DNA of 64,000 nt, taken from NCBI GenBank assembly GCA_963700145.1, contig OY969474.1, positions 2,560,001 to 2,624,000 of the forward strand. Reading direction: 5' to 3'. Of the stretch, positions 6,320 through 63,089 are shown in pieces (the stretch's first letter is position 1; every line of letters starts with the position of its first letter). Source of the DNA: an uncultured Acidobacteriota bacterium. GTDB lineage: Bacteria; Acidobacteriota; Thermoanaerobaculia; Multivoradales; UBA5704. The notes below the pieces were generated by a model. The model made no database searches, was not told where the DNA came from, and saw nothing but the letters and a program-made list of their open reading frames with translations. A program made the translations under genes and the position numbers.

Positions 6320-6537
6320 GCCGGACCTGGAGACGTCCTCCCGGGCGCCGGAAACCCGTTTCCAGGTGCTCGGGAAGATCCCGGGCCGCTCCGGGATAGA
6401 TCTCCGGGGCCTGGAGATAGATTTTCCGGGCTCGGAGATCTATCTCCGGGCCTTGGAGATACATCTTCCGGGGTCGGAGATCTATCTCCAGGCCTTGGAG
6501 ATAGATCTCCGGGCCTCCAAGATAGATCTCCTGGCCT
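6320..6537. repeat. 21-bp-period degenerate tandem array, left part
   Basis: Near-palindromic core GGAGAT(A/C)(G/T)ATCTCC about every 21 nt; resumes at 10340. Confidence 0.8.
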
Positions 6538-6692
6538 GGTACTGTCCTATTTAGTTTCCCGCCCGTCTGACCCCTTGATTCCGCGCTAGCTTCTCCCCCG
6601 AAGGGGGAGGCGTTCTCCCCTCAAACCGAAGCGGCCCGACGGAGCGCAGGCACGCCCCGCCGAGCCTGACCACGCACGGAGGACTAGCCCCC

Positions 6693-9454: not shown

Positions 9455-10330
9455 ATGGCTAACGTGCTCAGCACCGAGAAGCGAGTCGAGATCGTCCGCT
9501 GCCTGGTCGAAGGCTTAGGCATCCGCGCCACCGCCCGCAAGGAGCGCGTGTCCAAGGACACCGTCATGAAGCTCTGGCGGGAGATCGGCGAAGCCTGCAT
9601 CCAGCTCATGGATGAGAAGCTGCGCGGGCTCACCTGCAAGCGGCTCCAGGTCGATGAGATTTGGGCGTTCTGCCACGCCAAGGAAAAGAACGTCCCGGCC
9701 GACAAGCGGGGCGTCTTCGGCTACGGCGACATCTGGACCTTTACCGCGATTGACGCGCAGACCAAGTTGATTCCGTCCTTCCTGGTCGGCACGCGGGACG
9801 CGGGGTGCGCCACCGAGTTCATGCAGGACTTGGCGGGCCGGCTGGTCAACCGCGTGCAGCTCACCACGGACGGACACAAGATGTACCTGTCCTCCGTCCC
9901 GGATGCCTTCGGGGGCGGGATCGACTTCGCGCAGCTCCAGAAGATTTACGGCGGCGGGCCGACGGATGAGCAGCACCGCTACAGCCCGGCGAAGTGCCTA
10001 GGGACCGAGCGGCGCCGTATCCTCGGCGACCCCGACCCCAAGCACGTCTCGACGTCCTACGTCGAGCGCGGGAACCTGACCATCCGCATGAGCATCCGCC
10101 GCTTCACCCGGCTAACGAATGCCTTCTCGAAGAAGGTCGAGAATCACGTCGCGGCGCTCGGGCTCTTCTTCGCCTACCACAACTTTTGCCGGATTCATCA
10201 GACCCTGCGAATCACTCCGGCGATGGCGGCCGGGGTCACGACGCGGATATGGGAAGTCGAGGAGCTGGTGGCGCTCCTGCCGCCGGTCGCGCATGCGGGC
10301 GGTCGGCCGCGCCGGGCGGAAACTAACTAG
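9455..10330 (+). CDS. IS1-family DDE transposase (single ORF)
   Basis: N-terminal HTH, QVDEIW, WTFTAID, TTDG, TSYVERGNLTIR, NAFSKK; stop lies inside the right TIR. Confidence 0.9.
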   Translation: MANVLSTEKRVEIVRCLVEGLGIRATARKERVSKDTVMKLWREIGEACIQLMDEKLRGLTCKRLQVDEIWAFCHAKEKNVPADKRGVFGYGDIWTFTAIDAQTKLIPSFLVGTRDAGCATEFMQDLAGRLVNRVQLTTDGHKMYLSSVPDAFGGGIDFAQLQKIYGGGPTDEQHRYSPAKCLGTERRRILGDPDPKHVSTSYVERGNLTIRMSIRRFTRLTNAFSKKVENHVAALGLFFAYHNFCRIHQTLRITPAMAAGVTTRIWEVEELVALLPPVAHAGGRPRRAETN

Positions 10331-10339
10331 GACAGTACC

Positions 10340-10505
10340 CCTGGCCTTGAAGATATATCTCCGAGCCTCCGAGATATATCTCCAGGCGTCCAAGATAGAT
10401 CTCCAGCCCTCGGAGATAGATCTTCCGCGGCTGGAGATCTATCTCCAGGCGCCCGGGAGACATCTCCCGGCGCCGCCGGGACATCTCCAGGCGCTGGGGG
10501 GACAT
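10340..10505. repeat. 21-bp-period degenerate tandem array, right part
   Basis: Same GAGATA(G/T)ATCTCC units as 6320-6537. Confidence 0.8.
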
Positions 10506-10568
10506 CAACCTTCGACTGAAATGCCCAGCCGGTGCGCGGCGGGTGCCAAGCGGGTGAGCGGCGGGGGT

Positions 10569-10640
10569 AGTTGAGCGTCCGGTTCAACTTCCGTGAAATG
10601 AGTGACTTGGCGCTCGCGCCCCGCTGGCGCGCGGCTTGCC
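10569..10640 (+). promoter_or_regulatory. Sigma54-type promoter with upstream palindrome
   Basis: TGGCGCGCGGCTTGC at 10625-10639; AGTTGA-N9-TCAACT at 10569-10589. Confidence 0.62.
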
Positions 10641-10650
10641 TCTGCCCCCT

Positions 10651-10709
10651 GCCGAACCATCCGTCCGATGTGGGCCGTCGCGTCACCGTGCCGCGGCGGC
10701 CCCTTTTTT
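10651..10709 (+). ncRNA. Candidate ~60-nt small RNA
   Basis: Lies between the predicted sigma54 +1 and an intrinsic terminator; no ORF. Confidence 0.5.
10672..10709 (+). terminator. Intrinsic terminator
   Basis: 11-bp stem gggccgtcgcg/cgcggcggccc followed by CTTTTTT. Confidence 0.75.
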
Positions 10710-10731
10710 CTCCCGACTACAATCCGCGGCC

Positions 10732-11151
10732 GTGAAGCCCTGCGTCTTCTGCGAGGTGGTGCGCGGCGAGCGGGAGGCGGCGGTGGTCTAGGACGCGGAG
10801 ACGGTGGCGTTCCTCGACCACAGGCCGCTCCTCCACGGCCACTGCCTGCTGGTGCCGCGGCGGCACGTCGAGACGCTGGCGGAGCTGCCGGCGGAGCTCG
10901 CCGGGCCGCTCTTCGCCAACGTGCAGCGGCTGGCGGGGGCGGTGGAGCGGGGGCTGGACGCCGCCGGCGCCTTCGTCGCGATCAACGTCAAGGTCAGCCA
11001 GAGCGTCCCCCACCTGCACGTCCACGTCGTGCCGCGCTGGAAGGGGGACGGCCTCTTCTCCCACAAGCTCCTCTGGAAGCGCACACCCTACGCCGGCGAC
11101 GCCGAGAAGCGCGAGGTGCAGGAAAAGATCCGCCGGGCCCTCGCCGAGTAG
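10732..11151 (+). pseudogene. HIT family hydrolase with in-frame TAG at codon 20
   Basis: KPCVFC...VV*DAETVAFLD...GHCL...HLHVH; TAG at 10789-10791. Confidence 0.78.
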
Positions 11152-11232
11152 GCCAGCACTCGCAGACTAATCCCCCACCCGCGCTTGATCGGCCGTTCCG
11201 GTGTGGGGTCCCGCAGGTCTCCTCCGCGCCGC

Positions 11233-11269
11233 CCCCCGCCCAGATCCTTCGCTCTCGCTCAGGATGACA
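11233..11269. repeat. REP-like palindromic repeat
   Basis: cccccgcccagatccttcgctctcgctcaggatgaca, near-identical to 63002-63037. Confidence 0.8.
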
Positions 11270-11326
11270 AGGGGGGTAGTTCCCTTCCCTCTTTCTCCCC
11301 CCGACGTCACTTCAGAGGTTCGAGTC

Positions 11327-11508
11327 ATGGCGCCGCGTGATGTGCCGGGCCAGAGGCCTGCGAAAGCGTCGCGTTCGGGTGAAGTCACCACCAGCGTCCG
11401 CGAACGGAGCCGACCTGGTTCTGTGGCCACCACCCCTTCTGGTCAGGAACCGCGGGGCGGCGCGACTCTTTCGCGGGCCGGGTGGCCCGGCATCTCACGC
11501 GGCACTAT
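11327..11508 (+). ncRNA. Candidate structured RNA (or MITE)
   Basis: ~45-bp closing helix with several G-U pairs on the + strand, enclosing two hairpins with CACCACC-containing loops. Confidence 0.5.
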
Positions 11509-11530
11509 CCGTCCCGCGCGGGACAGCAGC

Positions 11531-12664
11531 CTAGGGGACAAGCCCCAGGTCTTCGTAGATCCCTTCCAGCGCCGCGCGCATGCGCCGCTCGTGGGCCTCG
11601 TCGGCGGGCGTGCCGTTGAAGACGAGGGCGACGACGAGCCCGTGCTCGGGGTCGAGGAAGGCGGTGGACGAGCGGCGGCCGCTATGGCCGAAGGTGCGTG
11701 GGGAGGAGTGGCGACCGTAGCCGTAGGGGACGGTCTCCTCGCCGTAGTGCTTCGAGTCCACGATCACCCCCAGCCCCCAGTCCAGCTTGTGGCGGAAGGT
11801 CAGGTCCACCATCCCCACCCGGTGCCGCGCGGCGATCGCCTCGATCGTCTGCGCCGAGAGCACCTGCCGTCCCTCGAGCGTGCCGCCGCCGCGGAACATC
11901 TCGTAGAGCCGCGCCAGCTCCCGCACCGGGCCCCGCCCGTTGCCGCCCGGGTTCGGCCGCACGCAGCGCGCCTCGCTCTCGCTGCCGTCCGGCCGCGGCG
12001 GCGCCGCCTCGGCGTCCCACATCGTCCCCAGCCGCCCCTCCTCCCGCGCCGCGCGCCAGCGCTCCGGCGGCATGCCGATCCAAGAGTCCGCCATCCCGAG
12101 CGGCTCGAACACCTCCTCCCGCACCGCCCGCTCGAAGGGTTGTCCGGTGAGCCGCGCCAGCACCTCGCCGAGCACGAACCAGGACGACGCCGGGTGGTAG
12201 CCGGCCTTCCGCCCCGGCTCCCAGCGCGGCTCGGGCTTGGCGGCGGCGATGCGCCCGACGATCGTCTCCCACGGGTCGCGCGGCCAGCCGACGTCGAGCA
12301 TGCGGATGCCGCCGGTGTGGGTGAGGAGGTGGCGGAGGGTGATCCGCTCCTTGCCCTGCGCCGCGAGCTCCGGCAGGTGCCGCGCCACCGGGTCGTCGAG
12401 GTCGAGGAGCCCGCGCTCCCAGAGCCGCGCCAGCCCGACCGCCACGACCGGCTTGGTCGTCGACTGCCAGAGCGCGAGCGTGTCGCGGCGCAGCGGTACC
12501 CCGGGGCGGTCCTCCCCCACCGCCGCGTCGGCCACCGCCTCGCCGCGCAGCGCGACGTAGAGCTGGGCGCCCAGGTGGAGCCCCTCGGCAATGCCCGCCT
12601 CGATGACTGCCCGCGTCCGCGACAGGCGCGCGAGGTCGCCGTCGATCGGGATCTGCGTCGCCAT
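11531..12664 (-). CDS. Serine hydrolase, beta-lactamase-like family
   Basis: STTK (SxxK), LLTHTGG, YH and FGHSG motifs. Confidence 0.88.
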   Translation of the reverse strand: MATQIPIDGDLARLSRTRAVIEAGIAEGLHLGAQLYVALRGEAVADAAVGEDRPGVPLRRDTLALWQSTTKPVVAVGLARLWERGLLDLDDPVARHLPELAAQGKERITLRHLLTHTGGIRMLDVGWPRDPWETIVGRIAAAKPEPRWEPGRKAGYHPASSWFVLGEVLARLTGQPFERAVREEVFEPLGMADSWIGMPPERWRAAREEGRLGTMWDAEAAPPRPDGSESEARCVRPNPGGNGRGPVRELARLYEMFRGGGTLEGRQVLSAQTIEAIAARHRVGMVDLTFRHKLDWGLGVIVDSKHYGEETVPYGYGRHSSPRTFGHSGRRSSTAFLDPEHGLVVALVFNGTPADEAHERRMRAALEGIYEDLGLVP

Positions 12665-33339: not shown

Positions 33340-33762
33340 AGCCGAACCGAGTGGGTCGGCGGCCGATGGGTTGGGTTGACCGCCGAATGGACTGGGCCGG
33401 CGGCCGAACTGAATGGGTCGGCGGCCGAATGGGCTGGGTCTGCGGCCGAATGGGCGGGGTCTGTGGCCGAATGGACTGGGTCTGCGGCCGAATGGGCTGG
33501 GTCGGCGAACGAATGGGCTGGGTCTGCGGACGAATGGGCTGGGTCGGTGACCGAATGGACTGGGTCTGCGGACGAATGGGCTGGGTCTGCGGACGAACCC
33601 ACTGGGTCGAGCTGCCGACCCAGCCCAATGGGCCGGCAACCCGTCCCAATGAGCCGCCAACCCACTCAAATGACCTGCCGATTCACCCCGATGGGCGCCC
33701 GACCCACTCCATTGGCCGGTCGACCCAGCCAGTCGAGCCGCCGACCCTCGCCATTCGTCGCC
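33340..33762. repeat. 21-bp-period tandem array with central polarity switch
   Basis: gaatgggctgggtctgcggcc-like units, then gacccagccc-like inverse units after ~33605. Confidence 0.85.
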
Positions 33763-43254: not shown

Positions 43255-43288
43255 GGACGCATATACGAGCCCGGGCGCCGGGGGTTTG

Positions 43289-44272
43289 CTATTTGCTCGG
43301 CTGCCAGACGAGCTTCCCTTCGCGGTCGATGTAGCCGCGGGCGTCGCCGACCTGGACCTCTGCGAGGCCGCCGTTGAAGTCGAAGGCCTCCTCGTACTGC
43401 GGGTTGATGACGATCTTGCCGTCCTCGTCGACGTAGCCCCAGCGGCCGCCGACCTTGACCCGCGCCAGCCCGTCGGCGAAGGGGGCGACCGACTCGAACT
43501 GCGGCGTGATCGCGAGCTTCCCGTCCTCGCCGACGTAGCCGCCGCGGTCGCCGACGCCGACCGAGGCCAGCCCCTCGGAGAAGCTGTAGGCGTTGTCGAA
43601 CTGCGGCGCGATGACCACCTCGCCGTCCTCGTCGATGAAGCCGTAGCGGCCGTTGCTCTTGACCAGAGCCTTGCCCTCGGCGAAGGCGAAGGCCTCCTCG
43701 TACTGCGCCGGGACGGCCATCTGGCCGTCGCGGTCGATGAACCCCCAGCGCCCCCCGACCTTGACCGCCGCGCGCCCCTCGGAGAACGGCTGCGCCTCGT
43801 CGAACTGCGGGTTGATGGCGAACTTCCCCTCCTCGTCGATGTAGCCGTGGCGGCCGCCCACCCGCACCCGCGCCAGCCCCTGCTTGAAGTCGCCGGCGTC
43901 CTCGAACTGCGGCGGGATGACCACCTCGCCGTCGCGGTCGAGGTAGCCCATGCGCTCGCCCTCCTTGAAGGCGGCGAGCCCCTCGTAGAAGCTGAAGGCG
44001 TCGTCGAAGCGCGGGTTGATGGCGAAGCGCCCCTCCTCGTCGATGTAGCCGTAACGGCCGCCGATCTCGACCACCGCCAGCCCGTCCGTGAAGCCGTAGG
44101 CGCGGTCGAACTGCGGCGGGATGACCACTTCGCCCTCGCGGTCGATGTAGCCGACGCGCCCGTTCTGGGTGACGGCGAAGAGGCCGCTCGGGTTCTTCTC
44201 CGAGCGGCGGTCGCAGCCGGCGGCGAGGAGCAGCGCCAGCGCGGCGCTCGCGCAAAGTGTTCTTTGCTTCAT
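43289..44272 (-). CDS. WG-repeat lipoprotein
   Basis: LAAGC lipobox; repeated GYIDxxG...PQF...FxEGLA. Confidence 0.9.
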
Positions 44273-56153: not shown

Positions 56154-57254
56154 CTACTCGTTCTCGGCGAGCAGGCCCTTCTCGGAGAGCTCCTGGCAGT
56201 CGATGCAGTAGCGGGCCCAGGGCACCGCCTCCAGCCGCTGCAAGGAGATGGGCCGGCCGCAGTTGCTGCAGCGGCCGTAGACGCCGTCGTCCATGCGGCG
56301 CAGCGCGTCCTCCACCTGGAAGAGCATCTGCCGCTCGCTGTCGGAGATCGAGAACATCAGCTCCCGGTTGTAGGAGTTGTTGGCGCGATCGACGATGTCT
56401 TCGGTGCCGTCGTCGGCCGACTCCTGGCCGGCGCGGAGGTCCTGCTTGTAGAGGTCGAGGATCTCCTGGCGCTGCTGCTCCAGGCGGCTGCGGAGGCGCG
56501 CGAGGGCGTCGTCGGGGATGGGCTGCTCGGGGGCGGCCGCGCTGCGGGGCTTCGACATCGTGCTCCTGATCTCCCTCTCCGGCTGGACCTGCGGTTGACG
56601 GATGACGGACGGCGTCGGCTTGGGGAGGTGGGTCGGCCGCACCACCGCGACCGGGGCCTTCGGCGCGGCGGGCTTCGCCGGCTTGGGGGCGGCCGGGGCC
56701 GACTTCGGCGCCACCGCGGCGACGAGCGGCTTGGCGATGGCCTTGGCGAGCTGGATGAGCTTGCTCGGCTTGGAAGGCTTGGGCGGCGTGGCCGGCTTCG
56801 CGGGCTTCGCCGCCTTCGCGGGCGTGGCCGGCTTGGACGGCTTCGCCGCCTTGGCGGCAGGCGCCGGCTTCTTCGGCTTCGCCGCCGCCTTCGCGGGACG
56901 GGCCGGCTTCTTCGCCTTCGCCGCCGCCTTGGCCGGACGGGCAGGCTTCTTCGGCTTGGCCGCCGCCTTGGCGGGCTTGCTCGGCTTGGACGGCTTCGCC
57001 GGCTTGGCGCGCTTCGCTACCGGCTTGGCGGGCTTCGCGGGCTTCGCGGGCTTCGCCGCCTTCGCGGGCTTCTTCGGCTTGCTCGGCTTGGCCGGCTTGG
57101 CCGGCTTGGCCGCCTTGCTCGGCTTCGCGGGCTTCTTCGCCACCGCCTTCTTCACGGGCTTCACCGGCGGCTTGCTCGGCTTCGCCGGCTTCTTCTTCGC
57201 AGTCTTTTTCGCCGCCGGCTTGCTCGGCTTCGTCTTGGCTTTGGTTTTCGCCAC
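56154..57254 (-). CDS. DksA/TraR C4 zinc-finger protein with Lys/Ala/Pro-rich N-terminus
   Basis: AGGAGG before GTG 57254; DIVDRA, CSNC...CIDC. Confidence 0.85.
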   Translation of the reverse strand: MAKTKAKTKPSKPAAKKTAKKKPAKPSKPPVKPVKKAVAKKPAKPSKAAKPAKPAKPSKPKKPAKAAKPAKPAKPAKPVAKRAKPAKPSKPSKPAKAAAKPKKPARPAKAAAKAKKPARPAKAAAKPKKPAPAAKAAKPSKPATPAKAAKPAKPATPPKPSKPSKLIQLAKAIAKPLVAAVAPKSAPAAPKPAKPAAPKAPVAVVRPTHLPKPTPSVIRQPQVQPEREIRSTMSKPRSAAAPEQPIPDDALARLRSRLEQQRQEILDLYKQDLRAGQESADDGTEDIVDRANNSYNRELMFSISDSERQMLFQVEDALRRMDDGVYGRCSNCGRPISLQRLEAVPWARYCIDCQELSEKGLLAENE

Positions 57255-62938: not shown

Positions 62939-62949
62939 CGACCAACACT

Positions 62950-63089
62950 TGTCATTCCGAGCGAAGCCGAGGAATCTGGGCGGGGGAAGGCCGGAGCATC
63001 GCCCCCGCCCAGATCCTTCGCTTCGCTCAGGATGACAGTTACTCGTCATCCTGAGCGGAGCGCAGCGTAGCGAAGGATCTGGGCGGGGG
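62950..63089. repeat. Cluster of three alternating REP-like units
   Basis: gtcat(t/c)c(c/t)gagcg...g(a/g)atctgggcggggg units in +,-,+ orientation. Confidence 0.85.

What the first reader, a model, noticed from the sequence alone, without database searches (positions are those of the whole stretch)
11327..11508. ~180-nt structured RNA candidate with twin CACCACC loops
Seen: 11327-11372 pairs with 11461-11508 in a ~45-bp helix. At least four non-Watson-Crick positions across the fold are G-U on the + strand (A-C on minus), which favours selection on a + strand RNA. Inside are two hairpins (gttcg...cgaac and ggttc-tggcca...tggtca-gaacc), both containing CACCACC. It lies between convergent genes. 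The size resembles 6S RNA, but I cannot see the typical central bubble. Alternatives are a C-rich-loop sRNA, an orphan RT-template-like RNA or a MITE.
Basis: partly seen in the sequence, partly recalled or inferred. Interest (0 to 1): 0.72.

Follow-up and report, generated by a model that had tools for sequence, protein, structure and literature searches.

The report
Palindromic module of mosaic intergenic repeat
The 180-base hairpin is real, but it is one of about twenty copies of a gene-less palindromic repeat that, joined to two other repeat modules, is scattered between unrelated genes in one genus of soil Acidobacteria, so it is repetitive DNA of a broadly familiar kind and not a one-off regulatory RNA.

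Summary
The long helix at 11327-11372/11461-11508 is real. RNA MFE is -121.6 kcal/mol, z -6.95. No Rfam family reaches its gathering score.

It is not a single-copy RNA gene. It is the core of a ~220-nt element ("module C", window 11303-11521) found at 20 loci in this 5.46-Mb genome. It occurs in all four other genomes of the genus that were searched. A GTDB-wide motif scan found it only in Thermoanaerobaculia records.

C is the 3' part of a ~570-nt mosaic: module A, then one or two short hairpin repeats (SR), then C. The window copy has lost most of A.

- Copies lie between unrelated genes, in any orientation.
- They have no target duplication, no sigma-70-like promoter and no conserved ORF.
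- The arms are almost invariant, while the interior falls into three subfamilies.
- Between species, the same site can be empty, hold a reversed unit, or hold another subfamily.
- SR resembles the Neisseria NTS hairpin, and inverted SRs flank a 92-aa GIY-YIG gene.

Best reading: a NIME/BIME-like palindromic mosaic repeat. The strand evidence for an RNA is inconclusive, and no RNA data exist.

The parts
11172..11180 (+). C-rich flank motif M (CCCCCACCC). The same motif, or its complement GGGYGGGGG, recurs next to many copies.
   Evidence: (left flanks). The G-motif lies within 30 nt 5' of C in 25 of 52 copies and within 25 nt 3' in 17 of 52.
11181..11231 (+). Remnant of module A. Only the left arm is left; full copies have ~210-250 nt here.
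   Evidence: A positions 12-62 match genome 2571183-2571231, which is window 11183-11231. Metagenome contigs run on at 11231 with the full-length A sequence (table 7).
11232..11272 (+). One short hairpin repeat (SR): CCCCCCGCCC + AGATCCTTCGCTCTCGCTCAGGATGAC + AAGG. It belongs to a family of at least 70 copies in this genome.
   Evidence: The exact SR pattern lies at genome 2571243-2571268, which is window 11243-11268.
11269..11302 (+). Variable spacer between SR and C. In this copy it forms a terminator-like hairpin followed by a pyrimidine run.
   Evidence: three overlapping terminator-like hits at 11269-11288. One search shows the spacer varies between copies.
11303..11317 (+). Conserved 5' extension of module C (GACGTCACTTCAGAG).
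   Evidence: column entropy near 0.
11318..11320 (+). Hypervariable triplet (GTT here), set between invariant blocks.
   Evidence: Entropy about 1.6, 0.6 and 1.6 bits with flanking columns at 0. It differs even between orthologous copies, as seen in the alignments.
11321..11326 (+). CGAGTC, the 5' 'foot' next to the helix. Together with the first AT of the helix it reads GTCAT.
   Evidence: My count on A1: exact GTCAT in 42 of 52 rows. It is replaced in all 6 rows of one species.
11327..11372 (+). 5' arm of the long helix; nearly invariant in the family.
11373..11460 (+). Variable interior with subfamily-specific hairpins. It holds both CACCACC words, a pyrimidine-rich variable stretch and the conserved small hairpin CCGCG-GGG-GCGG (most copies have CCGCGAAGCGG).
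11461..11508 (+). 3' arm of the long helix.
11509..11521 (+). Terminal 4-bp hairpin CCGT-CCCGC-GCGG and the sharp 3' end of the element. ACTATCCGYCCCGCGCGG is its most conserved word and is shared with the divergent family of a fifth species.
   Evidence: Pair 240/246 is C-G in 38 rows and U-G in 14, never A-C.
10804..11151 (+). Upstream neighbour, a HIT-family gene. It is not part of the element.
11531..12664 (-). Downstream convergent neighbour, a beta-lactamase-family gene. Its stop codon lies 9 nt from the element's end. It is not part of the element.

Best explanation
The finding is the palindromic core of 'module C', a ~220-bp non-coding repeat (window 11303-11521). C is one building block of a genus-restricted intergenic mosaic repeat: module A, then one or two short SR hairpins, then module C, about 570 nt when complete. 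The window copy has lost most of A.

The unit behaves as repetitive DNA and not as a gene. It sits between unrelated genes in any orientation. It has no promoter, ORF or target duplication.

I infer that it is maintained and reshuffled by recombination at its hairpins. The events I infer are deletion between the arms, inversion or re-insertion at the same site, exchange of subfamilies, addition of SR doublets, and homogenisation of copies within a genome. The near-invariant arms and ends against a free interior suggest that sequence-specific recognition of the folded or duplex ends by a protein is what is conserved.

Shown: copy number, architecture, distribution, and the differences between species at single loci.
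Inferred: the recombination mechanism and the protein partner.

Any transcript through a copy would carry a very stable hairpin. That may stall transcription or protect 3' ends, as a side effect.
For: - Copy number. 20 loci in the 5.46-Mb genome at 80-94% identity, one of them with the interior deleted. There are 16, 8 and 8 full-length places in three congeners and a divergent family in a fourth.
- Range. A GTDB-wide scan for the 18-mer end word gave 83 stretches. Of the 80 loci fetched, 35 are true copies, all from four Thermoanaerobaculia MAG records.
- Architecture. Conservation extends ~350 nt upstream in most copies, giving an A + SR pair + C unit of 565-600 nt. In congeners A joins C through a single SR.
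- Neighbours. Among 59 flanking ORFs, those with a Pfam match belong to unrelated housekeeping families (12 had none). No transposase lies beside a copy, apart from a weak IS1 match ~1 kb upstream of the window copy.
- Not a MITE signature. The longest shared flank word averages 3.58 in own pairs against 3.36 in mismatched pairs, so there is no TSD.
- Not a gene. 0 promoter-like sites in 3 units. 21 of 51 copies have an in-frame stop and 10 of 51 lack the ATG.
- Dynamics at the oppB site. It is empty in one species, forward in two and reversed in two, with subfamily I, subfamily III and a species-specific type. The G000 copy lost its interior where the G004 orthologue keeps it.
- Dynamics at two other sites. 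The SR doublet is present only in G000. A third site holds a ~1-kb gene instead in one species.
- Concerted evolution. All 6 rows of one species form one clade (100/99), although at least two sit at loci orthologous to G000 or G004 copies of other subfamilies.
- Conservation pattern. Arm columns have entropy ~0 while interior columns vary.
Against: - No mobilising enzyme was identified. There is no Y1 transposase in the genome. The only small GIY-YIG gene is flanked by SR and not by C, and no homologue was found in two congeners that carry many C copies.
- Most copies compared are syntenic and about as diverged as their flanks. So there is no sign of recent jumping in G000 or G004.
- Strong conservation of arms and ends, and one-sided changes that mostly give G-U on the + strand in the robust pairs, would also fit a selected RNA or a single-stranded DNA form.
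- No transcriptome was available, so transcription is untested.
- My ORF calls for gene orientation are crude.
Confidence: 0.6

Rival explanations
1. Classical MITE. The long inverted repeat serves as terminal inverted repeats bound by a DDE transposase supplied in trans, and the copies are dead or dormant insertions.
For: Multicopy, non-coding and intergenic, with presence/absence differences between species. The arms are far more conserved than the interior. Deletion derivatives exist.
Against: No target-site duplication. Conserved sequence reaches 24 nt beyond the 5' arm and 13 nt beyond the 3' arm, so the inverted repeat is not terminal. The whole A-SR-C unit has no terminal inverted repeat (my reading). 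No partial match of A or C next to a transposase in this genome. The same site holds reversed units and different subfamilies in different species.
Confidence: 0.12
2. Stand-alone structured small RNA family (6S-like, or an sRNA with C-rich loops) transcribed from the + strand. The pyrimidine-rich variable stretch would act as a seed.
For: Very stable fold with compensatory changes. In the 25 pairs predicted on both strands, one-sided changes give G-U on the + strand in 8 cells against 1 A-C. The terminal hairpin varies only by C-G to U-G. A ~13-nt stretch stays pyrimidine-rich while its sequence varies.
Against: No Rfam family reaches its gathering score. No promoter-like site in 3 units, and none of the 19 full G000 copies keeps a conserved upstream region other than repeat modules. 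The interior structure is not conserved between subfamilies. Whole-copy folds favour the minus strand in 38 of 47 copies. Copies lie in either orientation to neighbouring genes. Compensatory change in the arms is equally expected for a DNA palindrome.
Confidence: 0.08
3. Cis-acting RNA hairpin, as ERIC and REP elements are thought to be. The selected function would be to stop or stabilise transcripts at gene ends, with the DNA repeat as its vehicle.
For: By my rough ORF calls, about half of the 20 G000 copies fill the gap between convergent gene ends, often within 4-35 nt of stop codons. The helix is extremely stable on both strands. Terminator-like hairpins and pyrimidine runs lie beside several copies.
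Against: Five or six copies lie between divergent gene starts and about five between tandem genes, some of them antisense. A plain terminator needs neither 220 nt nor invariant arm sequence. Nothing was measured.
Confidence: 0.12
4. Giant Ssn-type site. The + strand, when single-stranded, folds into the hairpin. Its foot resembles the Neisseria NTS (GTC[AT...AT]C). An Ssn-like GIY-YIG nuclease would nick it a few bases upstream, at the hypervariable triplet.
For: In Neisseria (read), cleavage depends mainly on the three bases before the palindrome. The C just after the palindrome is the key base for binding. The cut lies a few nt upstream in variable sequence, and only one strand is cut. Module C has GTC before and C after its AT...AT-closed helix, and its hypervariable triplet lies 3 nt upstream of CGAGTC. 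That orientation is the strand weakly favoured by G-T wobbles. The genome has a 92-aa single-domain GIY-YIG gene flanked by inverted SRs.
Against: That gene is flanked by SR and not by C. No homologue was found with this query in G002 or G004, which carry many C copies. All 6 aligned copies of one species lack GTCAT. In Neisseria, changing the stem sequence abolished activity, and C's stem differs from SR's. The resemblance is short and was found post hoc.
Confidence: 0.08

Closest known systems
Neisserial intergenic mosaic elements (NIMEs): dRS3/NTS hairpins flanking RS elements (Bentley et al. 2007, PMC1797815, passages read; Chenal et al. 2025, PMC11893778, sections 6, 7, 8, 10 and 17 read)
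   Same: Both are mosaics of a short, abundant hairpin repeat and longer repeat modules of many families. RS elements are 19-214 bp; here A is ~210-250 nt and C is ~220 nt. Both lie in intergenic DNA. Arrays keep their chromosomal position between species, but their content is dynamic. The short hairpin SR has the same outline as NTS (GTCAT + stem + ATCTGG), and inverted SRs flank a ~92-aa single-domain GIY-YIG gene, as NTS flanks ssnA.
   Different: The phylum differs: Acidobacteriota, class Thermoanaerobaculia by record titles. The units hold only two long modules and are not long arrays. C is itself a 45-bp-stem palindrome with near-invariant arms, which is not described for RS elements in the passages I read. 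SR does not fit the published SRM search pattern (0 of 3). The GIY-YIG homologue was not found in two of the five species. Natural transformation, which the Neisseria work ties to NTS, is unknown here.
REP / BIME / REPIN elements with RAYT (TnpA-REP) transposases of Proteobacteria
   Same: Intergenic palindromic repeats occurring as singlets and as inverted doublets, clustered into mosaics, often at gene ends. SR singlet versus doublet mirrors REP versus REPIN.
   Different: No Y1/RAYT gene was found in this complete-looking genome, although the same search rang in 6 of 14 control genomes. Module C is about ten times longer than a REP.
Long palindromic MITE-like repeats: Correia elements (CREE; described in PMC1797815) and ERIC (recalled)
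   Same: Size class of 100-200 nt. Long inverted repeats with a variable or deletable centre, and internal-deletion variants. Often co-transcribed with neighbours.
   Different: Correia elements are reported with a TA target duplication (recalled). Here no duplication was found, and the inverted repeat is subterminal.
6S RNA (Rfam RF00013) and 6C-type C-rich-loop sRNAs
   Same: Length near 180 nt and a long, largely closed helix. C-rich words in the interior.
   Different: No match at Rfam gathering scores. Twenty copies. No conserved central bubble or conserved loops. No promoter.

Membership tests
6S RNA | Match to the Rfam covariance model at its gathering score | tested here: not met
   0 matches at gathering scores in the 64-kb window. 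In the permissive scan of 11100-11600 only chance-level hits appeared, the best being a plant miRNA model at 25.2 bits against a gathering score of 168.
6S RNA | One or two genes per genome, with a conserved central bubble | tested here: not met
   20 loci. The interior differs among three subfamilies.
MITE | Target-site duplication flanking each copy | tested here: not met
   Across 19 units the longest shared flank word averages 3.58, against 3.36 in mismatched pairs. 3 of 19 reach 5 or more, where 14% is expected.
MITE | Inverted repeats at the very termini | tested here: not met
   Conserved sequence extends 24 nt 5' and 13 nt 3' of the helix. The A-SR-C unit has unlike ends.
MITE | Related autonomous element with the same ends | tested here: inconclusive
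   None was seen in this genome. Relatives and metagenomes were not searched for one.
MITE | Presence/absence at orthologous sites | tested here: met
   The oppB site is empty in G002. The c19 site holds a gene instead in G003. At the c01 site, G001 and G004 have other DNA and no element.
REP/REPIN-RAYT | RAYT (Y1 HUH transposase, Pfam PF01797) encoded in the genome, usually flanked by the repeat | tested here: not met
   0 matches in the single-contig genome (95.4% completeness by marker genes). The control search rang in 6 of 14 genomes.
NIME-like mosaic (short hairpin + longer modules) | Longer repeat modules bordered by a short, abundant hairpin repeat | tested here: inconclusive
   An SR or its G-rich end lies between A and C in the junctions inspected. 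The G-motif is 5' of C in 25 of 52 copies and 3' of C in only 17 of 52, and there it comes without the rest of SR.
NIME-like mosaic (short hairpin + longer modules) | Syntenic position between species with dynamic content | tested here: met
   Four loci were compared.
Ssn / SRM system (for SR) | Single-domain ~94-aa GIY-YIG gene flanked on both sides by the hairpin repeat | tested here: met
   A 92-aa ORF matches Pfam GIY-YIG at 5.4e-12. An interrupted SR lies upstream and an intact SR directly after the stop codon, in inverted orientation. Membership of the protein in CDD cd10448 could not be tested.
Ssn / SRM system (for SR) | Match to the published degenerate SRM search pattern, with enrichment over chance | tested here: not met
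   0 of 3 SR copies match. The genome has 52 hits, against ~49 expected from a first-order random sequence.
Ssn / SRM system (for module C) | NTS-like foot (GTC before, C after an AT...AT-closed palindrome), with the nuclease gene present wherever the repeat is | tested here: inconclusive
   The foot is present in 42 of 52 aligned copies, by my count on A1. No homologue of the nuclease was found in G002 or G004. Binding and cutting cannot be tested here.

The most novel reading that the evidence does not exclude
Module C and the SR hairpins may form an acidobacterial counterpart of the Neisseria NTS/NIME system: a site-specific, single-strand-DNA-based recombination cassette. In this reading the + strand folds into a 45-bp-stem hairpin with an NTS-like foot. 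An Ssn-type or still unknown nuclease or recombinase nicks it at the hypervariable triplet. That nick would drive inversion in place, swapping of subfamilies at fixed chromosomal hot spots, and homogenisation of all copies within a genome.
Probability: 0.1. Interest if true: 0.7.

Novelty: new variant of a known kind. Interest (0 to 1): 0.35.

Why it matters
The practical gain is negative. This is not a new regulatory RNA, and the repeat will mislead gene callers. Several GC3-rich ORFs run through copies. It also breaks short-read assemblies: contig depth over the arms is 10-100 times that of the flanks, and contigs end there.

Three features are less ordinary and could be tested.
1. A mosaic built like the Neisseria NIMEs appears in a distant phylum, next to an Ssn-like GIY-YIG gene flanked by the short hairpin. 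The 2007 paper said NIME arrays had not been seen outside Neisseria.
2. The arms and ends of a 220-nt palindrome are held almost invariant across paralogues and species while the centre is free. A single triplet beside the helix foot is hypermutable.
3. The same chromosomal site carries the unit in both orientations and with different subfamilies in sister species. One species has homogenised all its copies.

Together these point to an active, sequence-specific recombination process on hairpin DNA that has no identified enzyme here.

Tried and rejected
- Rfam at gathering scores on the window, permissively on 11100-11600, and permissively on five full units. Only generic long-hairpin hits to miRNA models appeared, all far below their cut-offs.
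- Small protein starting at the ATG at 11328, with a Shine-Dalgarno-like AGAGG upstream. Rejected: 21 of 51 copies have in-frame stops, 10 of 51 lack the ATG, and the subfamilies differ by a frameshift.
- Expression. No RNA holder was listed for window 10600-12600, so nothing can be said about transcription.
- Laying four soil and urban metagenome contig sets. This showed only high summed depth on SR and the C arms, contig breaks at the repeats, one contig skipping 11364-11470, and loose ends that continue as full-length module A or as GGGCGGGGG-type flanks. No clean empty site appeared for this locus.
- Strand choice from G-U counts. The answer depends on which strand's predicted structure is used, so it is inconclusive.
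- Target-site duplication: none.
- Sigma-70 promoter scan of three units: none. Other promoter types were not covered.
- Replication-strand bias of orientation: 10 copies on + and 10 on -, with no obvious pattern by position. This is my reading. The origin was not mapped.
- Covariation of the hypervariable triplet with the 3' flank or with the variable interior: none seen by eye.
- RAYT/IS200 transposase: not found.
- IS110-family transposase: one copy and one fragment, not next to A, C or SR. A CCCCCGCCC motif lies ~144 nt upstream. Not pursued.
- A gene between head-to-head C copies in G002: no credible ORF in the ~290-nt gap.
- Published SRM pattern: does not describe SR.
- Earlier notes of this scan: a sequence look-up found nothing like module C.
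- Literature: a full-text search for 'Thermoanaerobaculia' together with 'repetitive extragenic palindromic' found 0 papers. I made no other search for prior descriptions of this repeat.

Full report
**What is at the coordinates**

- The + strand RNA of 11320-11515 folds at -121.6 kcal/mol (z -6.95; 0 of 200 shuffles as good).
- The minus strand folds almost as well (-116.4 kcal/mol, z -6.55).
- The + strand also folds as single-stranded DNA (z -4.46).
- Both CACCACC words are present.
- The neighbours converge. A HIT-family ORF ends at 11151. A beta-lactamase-family ORF on the minus strand ends at 11531, 9 nt from the element.
- No Rfam family reaches its gathering score in the window. A permissive scan gives only chance-level hits, the best being a plant miRNA hairpin model at 25.2 bits against a gathering score of 168.

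**It is a repeat, and larger than described**

The stretch occurs at 20 loci in the window's own genome, a single contig of 5.46 Mb with 71.5% G+C. There are 19 full copies at 80-94% identity, plus one copy in which the two arms are joined and the interior is missing.

Aligning the copies with their flanks gives sharp ends. The element runs from GACGTCACTTCAGAG to ...ACTATCCGYCCCGCGCGG, which is window 11303-11521, about 220 nt. I call this module C.

In most copies conservation continues ~350 nt upstream, giving a unit of 565-600 nt. The unit has three parts.
- **Module A**: ~210-250 nt, a long imperfect hairpin. Its ssDNA fold is not better than shuffles (z -1.2).
- **SR**: an inverted pair of a short hairpin repeat, CCCCCGCCC-AGATCCYTCGCT...GCTCRGGATGAC. 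It has at least 70 copies in the genome by an exact-type pattern and more by BLAST.
- **Module C.**

The window copy is truncated. It keeps the left 50 nt of A (11181-11231), one SR (11232-11272), a spacer and C. Metagenome contigs that match up to 11231 run on with the full-length A sequence. Four A-only copies also exist.

**Distribution**

- All four other genomes of the genus that were searched have the element. I count 16, 8 and 8 full-length places in three of them. The fourth has a divergent family that shares only blocks, above all the 3' end.
- It was not found in the other 36 relatives searched (20 of the same family, 16 of the same order), apart from one 33-nt weak hit.
- A scan of the GTDB species representatives for the 18-nt end word gave 83 stretches. 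Of the 80 loci fetched, 35 are true copies by BLAST, and all come from four records titled Thermoanaerobaculia bacterium. Three more loci from those records and 42 from other taxa share only the 18-mer.

**Not a gene of the usual kinds**

- Among 59 GC3-rich ORFs flanking the 20 loci, those with a Pfam match belong to unrelated families: HIT, beta-lactamase, sigma-54 activators, glycosyltransferases, thiolase, ABC permeases, RNR, MCM and others. Twelve ORFs had no match. No transposase lies beside a copy, except a weak IS1 match ~1 kb upstream of the window copy.
- By my rough ORF calls, about half the copies sit between convergent gene ends. The rest sit between divergent starts or tandem genes, in either orientation.
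- An ORF starting at the conserved ATG (11328) is not maintained. 21 of 51 copies have in-frame stops and 10 of 51 lack the ATG.
- No sigma-70-like promoter was found in three units.
- Five full units gave no Rfam family at its gathering score.
- No RNA sequencing run was listed for the locus, so transcription is untested.

**Structure and strand**

I aligned 52 copies from five genomes (A1).
- The consensus keeps a 19-pair outer helix that is 98.9% paired, the small hairpin CCGCGAAGCGG, and a terminal 4-bp hairpin.
- 9 of 34 pairs changed on both sides. Most of these changes separate the divergent species from the rest.
- Shuffles never reach the observed pairing, and slid controls pair 31-44%.
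- A DNA palindrome would show the same compensatory pattern, so this does not prove an RNA.
- The interior is not conserved in structure. It falls into three subfamilies with different hairpins.

- In whole-copy folds the minus strand is more stable in 38 of 47 copies and has more G-U pairs in 36 of 47. This is probably because the interior is C-rich on the + strand and so G-rich on the minus strand.
- In the 25 pairs predicted on both strands, one-sided changes give G-U on the + strand in 8 cells (7 pairs) against 1 A-C cell. That is a weak lean to the + strand, and G-T wobbles in folded single-stranded DNA would explain it equally well.

**Pattern of conservation**

Among 48 copies of the main family, most arm and end columns have zero entropy while the interior varies. 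Between the invariant blocks CTTCAGAG and CGAGTC lies a triplet (window 11318-11320) with about 1.6, 0.6 and 1.6 bits. It differs even between orthologous copies that are otherwise ~94% identical (alignments).

**Behaviour between species**

- **oppB site**. Here a permease gene converges on a small gene.
 - One species has an empty site, with the two stop codons abutting.
 - G000 and G004 carry the unit forward. G004 has a full C of subfamily I where G000 has the interior-deleted C, so the arms were joined in place.
 - Two other species carry the unit reversed, one with subfamily III and one with its own type.
 - A C-rich motif next to the permease gene stays put whatever the unit's orientation.
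- **Two further sites.** G000 has an SR doublet between A and C, where G004 and G003 have a single or degenerate SR.
- **One of those sites.** G003 has a ~1-kb gene instead of the unit.
- **The window's own site.** G003 carries the element next to the same downstream gene. G001 and G004 have 2 kb and 5 kb of other DNA between the flanking genes and no element there.
- **Tree of copies.** The 6 G003 rows form one clade (100/99) and the 4 G002 rows another. G000, G004 and G001 copies interleave by subfamily. At least two G003 copies lie at loci orthologous to G000 or G004 copies of other subfamilies. So G003 has either homogenised its copies or re-inserted them at the same hot spots.
- **No target duplication** flanks the units.

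**The short hairpin and a nuclease gene**

- I read their sections on NTS, SRM, SsnA activity, the family and the SRM pattern.
- NTS is CGTCATTCCCGCGMAVGCGGGAATCYRG. SR read on its other strand is GTCATCCYGAGCG-NNN-GCGARGGATCTGG, which has the same outline.
- In the exact matches I inspected, the Y and R positions co-vary (T with A, C with G).
- The genome has no Y1/RAYT transposase.
- It has one 92-aa single-domain GIY-YIG gene (Pfam 5.4e-12). An interrupted SR lies upstream and an intact SR directly after its stop codon, in inverted orientation. This is the arrangement reported for ssnA.

Against a simple equation of the two systems:
- SR does not fit the published SRM pattern (0 of 3), and the genome's pattern hits are at chance level (52 against ~49).
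- A homologue of the protein was found in 8 of 41 genomes. Within the genus it was found in G000 and G003, with a fragment in G001, and not in G002 or G004.
- SR is commonest in G000 (70) and in a genome of another genus that also has the gene (168).

**Comparison with known kinds**

The closest described architecture is the neisserial intergenic mosaic element. There, dRS3/NTS hairpins flank RS modules of 19-214 bp. The arrays are syntenic between genomes but dynamic, and were proposed to be recombination substrates (PMC1797815, passages read).

REP/BIME/REPIN elements and long palindromic MITE-like repeats (Correia, ERIC) are also close in kind, from recall. Their defining features were tested here and not met: there is no RAYT gene, no target duplication and no terminal inverted repeat.

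**A bolder reading that is not excluded**

Module C's helix is closed by AT...AT. It is preceded by GTC and followed by C, like NTS.
- In Neisseria, cleavage depends mainly on the three bases before the palindrome.
- The C just after the palindrome is the key base for binding.
- The cut falls a few bases upstream, in variable sequence, and on one strand only.
- C's hypervariable triplet lies in just that position, on the strand weakly favoured by wobble pairs.

Against this, all 6 aligned G003 copies lack GTCAT. C's stem differs from SR's. Two species with many C copies have no detectable homologue of the nuclease. I give this reading about 10%.

**Verdict**

It describes one copy of a lineage-specific palindromic module within a mosaic intergenic repeat. 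It is not a 6S-like RNA or a stand-alone sRNA on present evidence, and it is not a classical MITE. It is a new variant of a known kind, with moderate interest that rests on three things: its NIME-like build in Acidobacteriota, its invariant ends, and its site-bound inversion and exchange.

Noticed in passing
G000:C1:2172797-2173075 (L172:1492-1770); flanks L172:1338-1452 and 1779-1819: A 92-aa single-domain GIY-YIG gene with an interrupted SR upstream and an intact SR right after its stop codon, in inverted orientation. This is the arrangement described for Ssn nucleases and NTS/SRM repeats. SR translated gives the '...ILRCAQDD...' / '...VILSAAKDL...' peptides seen in spurious ORFs.
   Followed up: partly
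window 62948-62991: A second SR copy in the window (CTTGTCATTCCGAGCG...GGAATCTGGGCGGGGG), in inverted orientation to the SR at 11232-11272 (pair I6).
   Followed up: no
window 6353-6577 and 10310-10534: Two arrays of 21-bp palindromic units (GGAGATAGATCTCC type) bracket a ~3.7-kb stretch of lower G+C (56-64%). That stretch holds a weak IS1-transposase match at about window 9800-10327.
   Followed up: no
G000:C1:2156785-2157366 and 2161254-2161848 (L073): Two full units in inverted orientation, ~3.9 kb apart. Each follows a small paralogous ORF ending ...EEAARERVRH-type. A PIN-domain gene lies nearby. Similar inverted pairs 4-5 kb apart occur twice in G004.
   Followed up: partly
window 56731-57212, 43284-44195 and 33345-33629: Tandem periodicities of 9 nt, 102 nt and 21 nt (families D1, D2 and D4). 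The first two look like coding repeats. None was examined.
   Followed up: no
G000:C1:565657-566097 (L174) and 5251076-5251572: One IS110-family transposase gene and one fragment. A CCCCCGCCC motif lies ~144 nt upstream of the gene. No SR, A or C lies beside it.
   Followed up: partly
L015:1151-1483 and L004:2621-3064: Toxin-type genes (MazF/PemK and PIN) are among the immediate neighbours of two copies. With 20 loci this may be chance.
   Followed up: no
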